From a phage, in the NCBI GenBank assembly GCA_014913405.1, contig GCA_014913405.1_3931.1: a DNA stretch of 64,000 nucleotides; one strand, given 5' to 3'. Positions within the stretch are counted from its first letter, which is position 1. Each line of letters opens with the position of its first letter. A model generated the notes under the pieces. It was not told the DNA's origin, ran no database searches, and saw only the letters and a list, made by a program, of their open reading frames with translations. Made by a program: the position numbers and the translations under genes. Positions 47,545 to 47,611 of the stretch are shown here, one piece after another.

Positions 47545-47611
47545 GGTAAAGAAAAGGCGAGGGTTCGATTCCTTCACTCGGCAGATGTCGAGTTGGTGTA
47601 ATGGTAGCACT
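47545..47611 (+). pseudogene. tRNA fragments: a 3' half (T-arm plus acceptor 3' strand) directly followed by a 5' half (acceptor 5' strand plus D-arm)
   Basis: GAGGGTTCGATTCCTTC-ACTCGGC at 47559-47582, then GTCGAGT-TG-GTGTAATGGTAGCAC from 47587; the two acceptor strands are mutually complementary but in permuted order. Confidence 0.4.

What the first reader, a model, noticed from the sequence alone, without database searches (positions are those of the whole stretch)
47545..47611. Permuted tRNA halves: a 3' half directly followed by a matching 5' half
A canonical T-arm and acceptor 3' strand (GAGGG-TTCGATT-CCTTC-ACTCGGC-A, 47559-47583) has no upstream 5' half. Four nucleotides later comes GTCGAGT-TG-GTGTAATGGTAGCAC, an acceptor 5' strand plus D-arm with no downstream anticodon or T-arm. 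GTCGAGT pairs with ACTCGGC at 7 of 7 positions allowing G-U. This is what remains of a tandem tRNA duplication after deletion, or a genuinely permuted tRNA gene; either way it records rearrangement inside the tRNA array.
Basis: seen in the sequence. Interest (0 to 1): 0.5.

Follow-up and report, generated by a model that had tools for sequence, protein, structure and literature searches.

The report
Phage Y RNA mimicking a tRNA
The "permuted tRNA halves" are real, but they are the tRNA-like core of a conserved ~140-nt non-coding RNA of the bacterial Y RNA (YrlA) type, encoded 1 kb downstream of a Ro60-like ring protein in a Felix O1-like phage, so they are probably that protein's RNA partner and not a broken or rearranged tRNA gene.

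Summary
At 47559-47610 a T-arm, a 7-bp acceptor-like hairpin closed by AGAU and a D-arm follow one another; no tRNA or tmRNA is called there.

It is not a relic. The segment is the core of a ~138-nt RNA (47500-47637) closed by a stem that carries the motif UUACAGCAA. The order V-T-AS-D is that of YrlA, the tRNA-mimicking Y RNA that partners Ro60 in bacteria and some phages.

- The ORF 1 kb upstream (45044-46459; Pfam DUF2828 + DUF7788) folds like Ro60: its top 11 PDB matches are all Ro60.
- A covariance model built only from 12 unrelated phage loci carrying homologues of this gene finds the window element full-length (61.4 bits, E = 3e-11).
- The closing stem covaries at 7 of 7 pairs, and the acceptor hairpin has a different sequence in nearly every member.
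- Three shorter copies of the stem module lie between neighbouring tRNAs.
- In 42 of 75 related loci the module sits within 500 nt of the gene on the same strand, often with no tRNA nearby.

Differences from YrlA: a different stem motif, a protein not recognised as TROVE by sequence, and a location inside a tRNA array. A 2024 preprint noted the Ro60-like fold in phage Bas63 and only guessed at Y RNAs. Protein binding is inferred, not shown.

The parts
45044..46459 (+). Gene for a Ro60-like protein (471 aa; HEAT-repeat ring plus vWA domain with a MIDAS motif DxSxS at D279/S281/S283). It is the orthologue of Bas63 gp130.
   Evidence: ORF. Pfam gives DUF2828 + DUF7788 and no TROVE match. PHROG 850 is named 'RNA-binding protein'. 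The AF2 model has pLDDT 90.2. The top 11 Foldseek PDB hits are all Ro60/Rsr, full length, E 4.5e-8 to 1.4e-6. The same 1416-nt gene is bas63_0130.
46478..46597 (+). Two sigma-70-like promoter matches (46478-46506 and 46568-46597) ahead of the first tRNA. The next match is at 48033, so the Y-like RNAs probably lie in one transcription unit with nine tRNAs.
   Evidence: These are consensus matches only. The number found does not exceed that in shuffles, so co-transcription is an inference.
46790..46868 (+). Short Y-like module a, between tRNA-Glu and tRNA-Met: P0 (UGAC/GUCA), a bulge, P1 (AGACCAA/UUGGUCU) and the motif UUACAGCAA. It has no tRNA-like domain.
   Evidence: Shared 5' box CAGAAGACC-N3-UACAGCAA and 3' box GGUCUGG. 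R1 scores it 25.5 bits.
46957..47026 (+). Short Y-like module b, between tRNA-Met and tRNA-Asn. Its 5' 24 nt are identical to those of module d.
   Evidence: R1 scores it 28.8 bits, E = 4.6e-4.
47413..47492 (+). Short Y-like module c: P0 GAGC/GCUC, P1 AGACCAA/UUGGUCU, motif AUACAGCAA.
47500..47637 (+). Y-like module d, the YrlA-like RNA that contains the finding. Parts in order: P0 UUAC 47500-03 with GUAA 47634-37; P1 47507-13 with 47626-32; motif UUACAGCAA 47514-22; P2 (anticodon-stem equivalent) CUUAA 47525-29 with UUAAG 47611-15, or alternatively AUCU 47532-35 with AGAU 47614-17; then the V arm, T-arm, AS and D-arm.
   Evidence: MFE folds. Model R1, built without this sequence, matches 47504-47643 full length at 61.4 bits, E = 3e-11.
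47538..47554 (+). V arm (variable-arm position): UUUCU-CCGGUAA-AGAAA. Rfam's tRNA model and tRNAscan-SE read it as an anticodon arm (GGU).
   Evidence: The loop is not conserved in relatives and the arm is absent from most family members.
47559..47575 (+). T-arm: GAGGG-UUCGAUU-CCUUC.
   Evidence: The GGUUCGANUCC core is invariant in the family.
47576..47593 (+). AS, a closed acceptor-like hairpin: ACUCGGC-AGAU-GUCGAGU (7 bp). U(-1)/G(+1) at 47586/47587 is where RNase P would cut.
   Evidence: Compensatory replacements in Suspvirus (ACACG/CGUGU) and Mooglevirus (ACCCUUC/GAAGGGU) are. The RNase P site is inferred by analogy with M. smegmatis YrlA.
47594..47610 (+). U8-G9 followed by the D-arm, GUGU-AAUGGUA-GCAC.
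47636..47782 (+). A neighbouring structured RNA, 'e': a ~23-bp closing stem around a diverged interior that holds a mini hairpin, AGAC-CUUAAGCAA-GUCU. It ends one base before tRNA-Lys. Whether it belongs to the same system is uncertain.
   Evidence: Four stem pairs show compensatory changes among six Ounavirinae.

Best explanation
The finding is the tRNA-like domain of a phage-encoded Y RNA of the YrlA type.

Proposed working:
1. The RNA (about 47500-47637) is transcribed with the first block of the tRNA array and released by the tRNA-processing enzymes (inferred).
2. Its 5' and 3' ends pair into a bulged stem (P0/P1) that presents the conserved UUACAGCAA motif. This stem is the proposed binding site for the Ro60-like ring protein encoded 1 kb upstream (inferred from genomic linkage and by analogy with Ro60-Y RNA).
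3. The distal part folds like the elbow of a tRNA: a T-arm and D-arm with all the nucleotides needed for the T-loop/D-loop interaction, a 7-bp acceptor-like helix closed by a 4-nt loop, a variable-arm hairpin, and no anticodon arm. As proposed for YrlA, this domain would recruit a tRNA-recognising factor to the ring protein. Candidates are an exoribonuclease, RNase P, the CCA-adding enzyme or a modification enzyme.
4. Three shorter paralogues (a-c) carry only the stem module, like YrlB beside YrlA.
5. The particle probably acts on RNA, in tRNA surveillance or turnover or in counter-defence. The orthologous protein, Bas63 gp130, counters the ppl defence system.

Shown here: the anatomy, conservation, covariation, the Ro60-like fold, and the gene-RNA linkage.
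Inferred: expression, processing, binding, the partner of the tRNA-like domain, and the biological role.
For: (1) Architecture. The order V-T-AS-D, enclosed by a 5'/3' stem, is the order that defines YrlA (Chen 2014, PMC4201824). Wang 2018 calls YrlA RNAs circularly permuted tRNA look-alikes with closed acceptor stems.

(2) Partner gene. ORF 45044-46459 gives an AF2 model with pLDDT 90. Its 11 best PDB matches are all Ro60/Rsr, including Thermus phage phiLo Ro60. The MIDAS residues are invariant.

(3) Independent detection. Model R1, built from 12 loci of phages whose protein is only 40-44% identical, hits 47504-47643 full length at 61.4 bits, E = 3e-11. The next-best hits in the window score 29.4 bits or less and are tRNA junctions or the short modules.

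(4) Covariation in 18 members. 97.7% of cells are paired, against 29-47% when the partners are slid. All 7 P1 pairs change on both sides. No shuffle in 500 reaches the observed score.

(5) AS. In 15 of 18 members it is a perfect 6-9 bp hairpin of unrelated sequence. Within Ounavirinae the whole stem is replaced compensatorily.

(6) Linkage. The P1 + YMGCAR module occurs 87 times on the gene strand and 17 times on the other strand in 75 loci. Forty-nine lie within 500 nt of the gene, against 0 on the other strand, and 42 of 75 loci have one. In 15 of 18 such loci checked there is no tRNA within 4 kb, so the link is to the gene and not to tRNA arrays.

(7) The window holds four modules with the same 20-nt 5' box, and none on the minus strand.

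(8) Bas63 gp130 is the same gene. It was reported as Ro60-like and as an anti-ppl factor, with Y RNAs only conjectured (PMC11482910).
Against: - No experimental evidence that the RNA is made, stable or bound by the protein.
- The YrlA stem motif GNCGAAN0-1G is absent.
- No Rfam family other than tRNA matches.
- The protein has no sequence-level TROVE match.
- gp130 alone, expressed from a plasmid or from T7, counters ppl. At least that activity therefore does not need the phage's own RNAs.
- The tRNA-like version was found in only about 15 of 75 loci within +/-4 kb of the gene.
- The covariation alignment was fitted to the model, which favours the structure.
- The P2 register in the window copy is ambiguous.
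- The z-score of the isolated 156-nt fold is only -0.98.
Confidence: 0.72

Rival explanations
1. It is a decaying remnant of a tandem tRNA duplication and deletion, with no present function.
For: The order 3' half then 5' half is what a tRNA-tRNA junction looks like. Some relatives keep N-CCA after the 7-bp stem. Wang 2018 proposes a dimeric-tRNA origin for YrlA.
Against: It is conserved at 95-99% in over 200 genomes and retained in other genera with compensatory changes. It is found by a model built from unrelated phages. All tertiary-interaction nucleotides are intact. No tRNA of the array is a close paralogue. It is enclosed by a covarying stem with a conserved motif.
Confidence: 0.04
2. 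It is a genuine permuted tRNA gene. The transcript would be circularised or ligated at the D-arm/anticodon-arm junction and opened at the acceptor loop, giving a decoding tRNA (anticodon GGU, Thr).
For: All four arms can be drawn. The upstream hairpin has a 5-bp stem and a 7-nt loop, and 4 nt separate it from the T-arm. tRNAscan-SE users annotate a tRNA-Thr-GGT here. The acceptor stem has 7 bp with U(-1)/G(+1).
Against: Position 33 is C. The loop differs in close relatives, giving anticodons GGU, UAU and UUU. Most family members have no such hairpin at all. No bacterial or phage machinery for BHB-type excision and ligation is known (general knowledge). The array already has tRNA-Thr(UGU) and lacks only Trp. 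The three sister modules have no tRNA part.
Confidence: 0.03
3. It is a processing or punctuation element, or a cis-regulatory element. On this view the tRNA-like fold only serves as an RNase P/RNase Z cleavage signal in the polycistronic tRNA transcript. The stem module next to DUF2828 genes would be a UTR element such as an autoregulatory operator or an RNase III site, not a stable trans-acting RNA.
For: Modules sit 6-200 nt from the start or stop codon of the gene in many loci. The window copies fill gaps between tRNAs exactly. The 7-bp AS is a plausible RNase P substrate.
Against: In the window the modules are separated from the gene by two promoter-like sites and by tRNAs, and they occur four times. 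Canonical Y RNAs are likewise adjacent to rsr, on the same strand, and cut from a common precursor. Conservation of the D/T tertiary nucleotides goes beyond what a cleavage signal needs.
Confidence: 0.12
4. It is a tRNA decoy acting independently of the Ro60-like protein. It would soak up a host tRNA-targeting defence or toxin that recognises the tRNA elbow or acceptor end.
For: It lies in a phage tRNA array, a context linked to counter-defence. It is a faithful elbow mimic. Some relatives have N-CCA loops.
Against: It lacks an anticodon loop, the target of the best-known tRNA nucleases. The closing stem and motif, shared with tRNA-less modules tied to the Ro-like gene, are not explained.
Confidence: 0.08

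Closest known systems
YrlA (Y RNA-like A) of bacteria and mycobacteriophages (Chen et al. 2014, PMC4201824; structure 6CU1, Wang et al. 2018, 10.1101/312249)
   Same: It is encoded within 4 kb of a Ro60-type gene on the same strand. The domain order is V, T, AS, D. The acceptor-like stem is closed by a loop and there is no anticodon loop. The D- and T-loop nucleotides for the tRNA elbow are conserved. AS length varies and in some members AS is missing. A shorter sister RNA (YrlB) lacks the full tRNA domain. A 7-bp AS, as in M. smegmatis YrlA, is cut there by RNase P and receives CCA.
   Different: The stem motif is UUYCAGCAA followed by a 3' tail CUGAUAA, not GNCGAAN0-1G. The partner protein belongs to Pfam DUF2828/DUF7788 and is Ro60-like only by fold. 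The element sits inside a tRNA array with several short paralogues between tRNAs. About a third of family members encode N-CCA directly after a 7-bp AS.
Thermus phage phiLo Ro60 with Yrl1/Yrl2 (PMC12135203; PDB 9L5Y)
   Same: A phage-encoded Ro60 ring protein with two adjacent Y-like RNAs. The phiLo protein is among the best structural matches of the window protein.
   Different: The phiLo RNAs were picked by a CGAA motif and a stem-bulge-stem shape and are not described as tRNA mimics. The protein families differ at the sequence level.
Circularly permuted tRNA genes of Cyanidioschyzon merolae and some other algae and archaea (Soma et al. 2007, as cited)
   Same: The 3' half lies upstream of the 5' half. 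The acceptor strands are joined by a short linker that forms a closed loop in the precursor. The ends pair into a stem at the anticodon side.
   Different: Those genes yield canonical decoding tRNAs through BHB excision, circularisation and RNase P/Z opening. Here there is no conserved anticodon arm, no known machinery in bacteria or phages, and the closing stem carries a conserved motif shared with modules that have no tRNA part.
Two-piece tmRNA from permuted ssrA genes (alpha-proteobacteria, cyanobacteria; general knowledge)
   Same: It is a permuted gene order in which the T-arm and acceptor 3' strand precede the acceptor 5' strand.
   Different: ARAGORN reports no tmRNA. The third acceptor pair is C-G, not G-U. 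There is no tag reading frame and there are no pseudoknots.

Membership tests
YrlA-type Y RNA (Chen et al. 2014) | Encoded within ~4 kb of a Ro60 orthologue, on the same strand | tested here: met
   The element starts 1041 nt after the stop codon of ORF 45044-46459, on the same strand. That ORF is Ro60-like by predicted fold, though not by sequence.
YrlA-type Y RNA (Chen et al. 2014) | Stem-loops in the order V, T, AS, D between paired 5' and 3' ends; AS is a closed hairpin; no anticodon loop | tested here: met
.
YrlA-type Y RNA (Chen et al. 2014) | Conserved tRNA-like nucleotides that allow the D-loop/T-loop tertiary contacts (U8, A14, G18G19, G53, T54, Psi55, C56, A58, C61) | tested here: met
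   All are present in the window copy and nearly invariant in 18 members. The Levitt pair 15-48 would be A-C in the window copy, so it is not canonical.
YrlA-type Y RNA (Chen et al. 2014) | GNCGAAN0-1G motif near the 5' end (the proposed Ro60 contact) | tested here: not met
   The 5' strand reads AGACCGU-UUACAGCAA. The family consensus is UUYCAGCAA.
YrlA-type Y RNA (Chen et al. 2014) | Match to the published YrlA covariance models or to an Rfam family | tested here: inconclusive
   Rfam 15 at E <= 10 gives only a partial tRNA match. The published models are not held. I could not verify whether Rfam contains a YrlA model.
YrlA-type Y RNA (Chen et al. 2014) | Bound by the Ro60 protein in vivo; modified by TruB and DusA | not testable with these tools
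   Needs RIP/CLIP and modification mapping.
Ro60 / TROVE protein (partner ORF 45044-46459) | HEAT-repeat ring followed by a vWA domain | tested here: met
   AF2 model with pLDDT 90.2 and pTM 0.89. Foldseek ranks 1-11 are Ro60/Rsr over about 515-555 aligned columns, TM 0.42-0.65.
Ro60 / TROVE protein (partner ORF 45044-46459) | MIDAS motif in the vWA domain (DxSxS ... T ... D) | tested here: met
   D279, S281, S283, T349 and D381 are invariant in 42 homologues. The sequence is DVSSS.
Ro60 / TROVE protein (partner ORF 45044-46459) | Sequence match to the TROVE domain or to solved Ro60 chains | tested here: not met
   Pfam gives only DUF2828 + DUF7788. phmmer and a profile search of PDB find no Ro60. 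NCBIfam finds nothing.
Circularly permuted tRNA gene (C. merolae type) | 3' half upstream of 5' half, with acceptor strands that pair | tested here: met
Circularly permuted tRNA gene (C. merolae type) | A complete, conserved anticodon arm (U33, fixed anticodon) yielding a tRNA the genome needs | tested here: not met
   Position 33 is C. The loop varies among relatives. The arm is missing in most family members. Only Trp is missing from the array, whereas the hairpin would read Thr.
Circularly permuted tRNA gene (C. merolae type) | BHB motif at the junction, with splicing endonuclease and ligase to circularise | not tested
   No search for a BHB motif or for such enzymes was run here. None is reported for bacteria.
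Two-piece (permuted) tmRNA | Recognised tRNA-like domain with G3-U70 and a tag reading frame | tested here: not met
   ARAGORN finds no tmRNA. The third acceptor pair is C-G.

The most novel reading that the evidence does not exclude
DUF2828 proteins and these RNAs may form a distinct, widespread phage branch of Ro60-Y RNA particles. In that branch the Y RNA would be a split tRNA: RNase P opens the 7-bp acceptor hairpin and 3' trimming (or CCA addition) exposes a genuine N-CCA end. Five or six of about 17 independent family members encode exactly 7 bp + N + CCA. The window copy has U(-1)/G(+1) at the expected cut.

The result would be a nicked, two-piece tRNA look-alike tethered to a ring protein. 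It could be charged, or be recognised by tRNA-end-sensing enzymes or defence systems. That would link the particle to the anti-defence activity reported for Bas63 gp130.
Probability: 0.2. Interest if true: 0.8.

Novelty: new variant of a known kind. Interest (0 to 1): 0.6.

Why it matters
Ro60-Y RNA particles are known in animals, bacteria and a few phages, but what the tRNA-like domain of YrlA does is still open.

- This work identifies concrete candidate RNA partners for a Ro60-like protein family that sequence methods do not recognise as Ro60 (Pfam DUF2828; at least 1891 homologues in the protein search).
- One member, Bas63 gp130, was recently shown to counter the ppl defence system. Its authors could only guess that "some tRNA genes" might be Y RNAs.
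- The candidates are one tRNA-mimicking RNA and three short ones at exact coordinates, plus a family-wide motif (stem + UUYCAGCAA). That makes binding, processing and knockout experiments directly designable in a tractable E. coli phage.
- It also corrects the annotation. The region is variously annotated as a 129-nt tRNA-Thr, as minus-strand hypothetical proteins, or left blank.

Tried and rejected
- Rfam 15 at gathering threshold over the whole window, and at E <= 10 over 47300-47850, gives nothing but tRNA.
- Sequence searches of the protein against PDB, single sequence and profile, find no Ro60. NCBIfam finds nothing. Only the fold comparison revealed the relationship.
- A MAFFT alignment that included the window copy (A2) mis-registered its 5' end, so the model was built without it. 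This also made the test independent.
- The AS helix could not be written as alignment columns because its length varies. It was analysed per sequence instead.
- A second model, R2, found no further full-length members in the 75 loci.
- L008, a Felix-like contig whose protein is 47% identical, has only short modules.
- Supplementary YrlA alignments of Chen 2014 are not held, so no direct comparison with the YrlA model was possible.
- A search for a donor tRNA among the 26 tRNAs found none. The best local scores were 10 of 25 and 21 of 47, both with tRNA-Ser.
- Protein-coding readings were rejected. These are the 58-aa ORF 47438-47614 (+), the 85-aa ORF 47474-47731 (-) and Bas63 CDS 0137/0138. 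Relatives differ by 2-nt and 4-nt indels, and substitutions follow base-pairing.
- The tmRNA reading was rejected.

Full report
CONTEXT. The window is a Felix O1-like phage. The 429-nt tRNA-free stretch 47355-47783 is 95-99% identical in over 200 Felixounavirus records from Escherichia, Salmonella, Shigella and Citrobacter phages. It lies inside an array of 26 tRNA genes on the + strand (46624-51835) that covers every amino acid except Trp.

OBSERVATION.
- T-arm: GAGGG/UUCGAUU/CCUUC, 47559-75.
- Acceptor 3' strand: ACUCGGC, 47576-82.
- Four-base loop: AGAU, 47583-86.
- Acceptor 5' strand: GUCGAGU, 47587-93, pairing 7 of 7 with one G-U.
- U8-G9, then the D-arm GUGU/AAUGGUA/GCAC, 47596-47610.

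ARAGORN calls no tRNA or tmRNA here. Rfam gives only a partial, sub-threshold tRNA match that reads an upstream hairpin (UUUCU-CCGGUAA-AGAAA, 47538-54) as an anticodon arm. A strict descriptor for T-arm + hairpin + D-arm hits the window once on both strands.

ANATOMY BEYOND THE FLAGGED SEGMENT. Folding shows that the unit is enclosed by a helix, AGACCGU 47507-13 with ACGGUCU 47626-32. A second short helix (UUAC/GUAA) extends it across a small bulge. The order along the strand is:
1. closing stem, 5' strand;
2. UUACAGCAA;
3. a short helix equivalent to the anticodon stem;
4. hairpin V;
5. T-arm;
6. closed acceptor-like hairpin (AS);
7. D-arm;
8. an A-rich joiner;
9. closing stem, 3' strand.

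This is the published architecture of YrlA, the tRNA-mimicking Y RNA that binds bacterial Ro60. It has stem-loops V, T, AS and D, with AS closed and no anticodon loop (Chen 2014). Wang 2018 describes YrlA RNAs as resembling circularly permuted tRNAs with closed acceptor stems.

THE NEIGHBOURING GENE. ORF 45044-46459 (471 aa, + strand) ends 165 nt before the first tRNA.
- Pfam sees DUF2828 + DUF7788. PHROGs calls the family 'RNA-binding protein'.
- Sequence searches of PDB find nothing relevant.
- An AlphaFold2 model built on 42 homologues is confident (pLDDT 90.2). Its 11 best Foldseek matches in PDB are all Ro60: Xenopus Ro60, Deinococcus Rsr and Thermus phage phiLo Ro60. They align over the full length with E from 4.5e-8 to 1.4e-6. 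Isolated vWA domains follow only at E > 1e-3.
- A MIDAS signature (DxSxS, T, D) is invariant.
- The gene is the orthologue of Bas63 bas63_0130. A 2024 preprint reported that protein as structurally Ro60-like and as a counter to the ppl defence system. [quoted passage not shown]

COMPARATIVE EVIDENCE. Eighty viral contigs encoding homologues of the protein were fetched.
- The descriptor found non-tRNA T-AS-D units on the gene strand in about a dozen loci whose proteins are 40-44% identical to the window's.
- All of them share a closing helix, the motif UUYCAGCAA after its 5' strand, an A-rich 3' joiner and the tail CUGAUAA.
- A covariance model was built from 12 of these, without the window. 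It matches window 47504-47643 over its full length at 61.4 bits, E = 3e-11. All other hits in the 64-kb window score 29.4 bits or less and are tRNA-tRNA junctions or the short modules.
- On 18 members, 97.7% of pair cells are standard pairs, against 29-47% with slid partners. All seven closing-stem pairs change on both sides, and no shuffle in 500 reaches the observed covariation score. The caveat is that this alignment was fitted to the model.
- AS is a perfect 6-9 bp hairpin of unrelated sequence in 15 of 18 members. It is reduced or absent in three, as also happens among YrlAs.
- Within Ounavirinae the stem ACUCGGC/GUCGAGU becomes ACACG/CGUGU in Suspvirus and Sf14, and ACCCUUC/GAAGGGU in Moogle and Mordin. 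The T- and D-arms stay fixed.

LINKAGE TO THE GENE, NOT TO tRNA ARRAYS. A simple descriptor was used: a 7-bp helix, YMGCAR 1-4 nt after its 5' strand, and an A-rich run before its 3' strand.
- It finds 87 modules on the gene strand and 17 on the opposite strand in 75 loci.
- Forty-nine of the 87 lie within 500 nt of the gene, a zone that holds 11% of the sequence. None on the other strand does.
- Forty-two of 75 loci have one.
- Of 18 such loci checked, 15 have no tRNA gene within 4 kb.
- Most of these modules are short (50-60 nt) and lack the tRNA-like domain. The tRNA-like version occurs in about 15 of 75 loci.

MORE COPIES IN THE WINDOW. The 20-nt box CAGAAGACC-N3-UACAGCAA occurs four times, all on the + strand: at 46793, 46960, 47416 and 47503. 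Each is followed by GGUCUGG and folds into the same bulged stem. Modules a (46790-46868) and b (46957-47026) exactly fill gaps between tRNAs. Module c (47413-47492) directly precedes module d, the tRNA-like one. This parallels YrlA/YrlB pairs. Promoter-like sites lie at 46478 and 46568, and the next is at 48033. Co-transcription with nine tRNAs and release by tRNA-processing enzymes is therefore likely, but it is inferred.

INTERPRETATION. The best explanation is a phage Ro60-like/Y-like RNA particle. The stem module would be the protein-binding part. The flagged segment would be the effector-recruiting tRNA mimic. What it recruits is unknown, as it is for YrlA. Two points temper the claim. 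There are no expression or binding data. And gp130 alone rescues T7 on ppl hosts, so that activity does not depend on the phage RNAs.

RIVALS.
- A decaying duplication remnant is contradicted by the conservation and covariation.
- A functional permuted tRNA is contradicted by C33, by the variable loop (CCGGUAA, CUGGUAA, CUUAUAA, AUUUUCA), by the absence of the arm from most members and by the lack of any known processing machinery.
- tmRNA is excluded.
- A pure processing or UTR element, or a Ro-independent decoy, cannot be excluded but explains less.

AN UNEXPECTED DETAIL. In five or six of about 17 independent members, including Moogle and Mordin, the AS reads exactly 7 bp + one base + CCA. 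The expectation is about 0.3. This fits an origin from a tRNA-tRNA junction, as Wang 2018 proposed for YrlA. It also suggests that some members are opened to a true CCA end, as shown for M. smegmatis YrlA. The window copy lacks CCA but has U(-1)/G(+1) at the expected RNase P site.

NOVELTY. The kind of RNA is known. Three things differ:
- the stem motif, which is not GNCGAAN0-1G;
- the partner protein family, which is not TROVE by sequence;
- the setting inside a tRNA array with several short paralogues.

No Rfam family matches. No paper in the held library identifies these RNAs. Existing records annotate the site as a 129-nt tRNA-Thr, as minus-strand hypothetical proteins, or not at all.

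Noticed in passing
window 46790-46868, 46957-47026, 47413-47492: Three short paralogues of the closing-stem module sit between tRNA genes. Each has the 5' box CAGAAGACC-N3-UACAGCAA and the 3' box GGUCUGG but no tRNA-like domain. They are candidate YrlB-like RNAs.
   Followed up: partly
window 47636-47782: A ~147-nt RNA with a ~23-bp closing stem that shows compensatory changes among six Ounavirinae, while its interior has diverged. It ends one base before tRNA-Lys and contains a mini hairpin, AGAC-CUUAAGCAA-GUCU (AAACC-CUUUAGCAA-GGUUU in relatives), that echoes the module motif. 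Its 5' end overlaps the 3' end of module d. Function unknown; the long duplex could be an RNase III site.
   Followed up: partly
window 47361-47416: Two adjacent hairpins lie right after tRNA-Asp: GAGAGGGCU-AUUU-AGCCCCUCCC, and CUUAAAGAGUUCUUACGAGUAUUCUUUAAAGG. Neither is followed by a T run. Unexplained.
   Followed up: no
L079 5388-8617; L049 5400-5646; L081 38-396: Some distant phages carry tandem batteries of these RNAs next to the DUF2828 gene. L079 has at least three tRNA-like units and three short modules. L049 has two tRNA-like units back to back, starting 17 nt after the stop codon.
   Followed up: partly
L049 5563-5618, L079 5843-5901 and 8527-8582, L043 5419-5555, L085/L086 (Moogle, Mordin): These acceptor-like hairpins read exactly 7 bp + one base + CCA + 2-7 nt, as a tRNA 3' end followed by a spacer would. 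Far more members do so than chance predicts.
   Followed up: partly
L001 1600-1728, L002 1601-1731, L087 2775-3049: Public records annotate this locus inconsistently. Some have a 129-131-nt 'tRNA-Thr-GGT' from tRNAscan-SE. Bas63 has two minus-strand hypothetical CDSs (bas63_0137/0138). Most have nothing. These are probably mis-annotations of the ncRNA.
   Followed up: yes
window 46624-51835: The 26-tRNA array lacks only tRNA-Trp. It contains two ORFs (49917-50474, 185 aa; 50863-51660, 265 aa) and three tRNA-free gaps of about 240-250 nt (48018-48263, 48341-48578, 48669-48922) that were not examined for further RNAs.
   Followed up: no
L010 3263-3391, L017 1529-1645, L033 3786-3908: In these members the T-arm and D-arm are joined by only 3-10 nt, so AS is absent or 3 bp long. 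The unit ends 6-93 nt before the start codon of the DUF2828 gene.
   Followed up: partly
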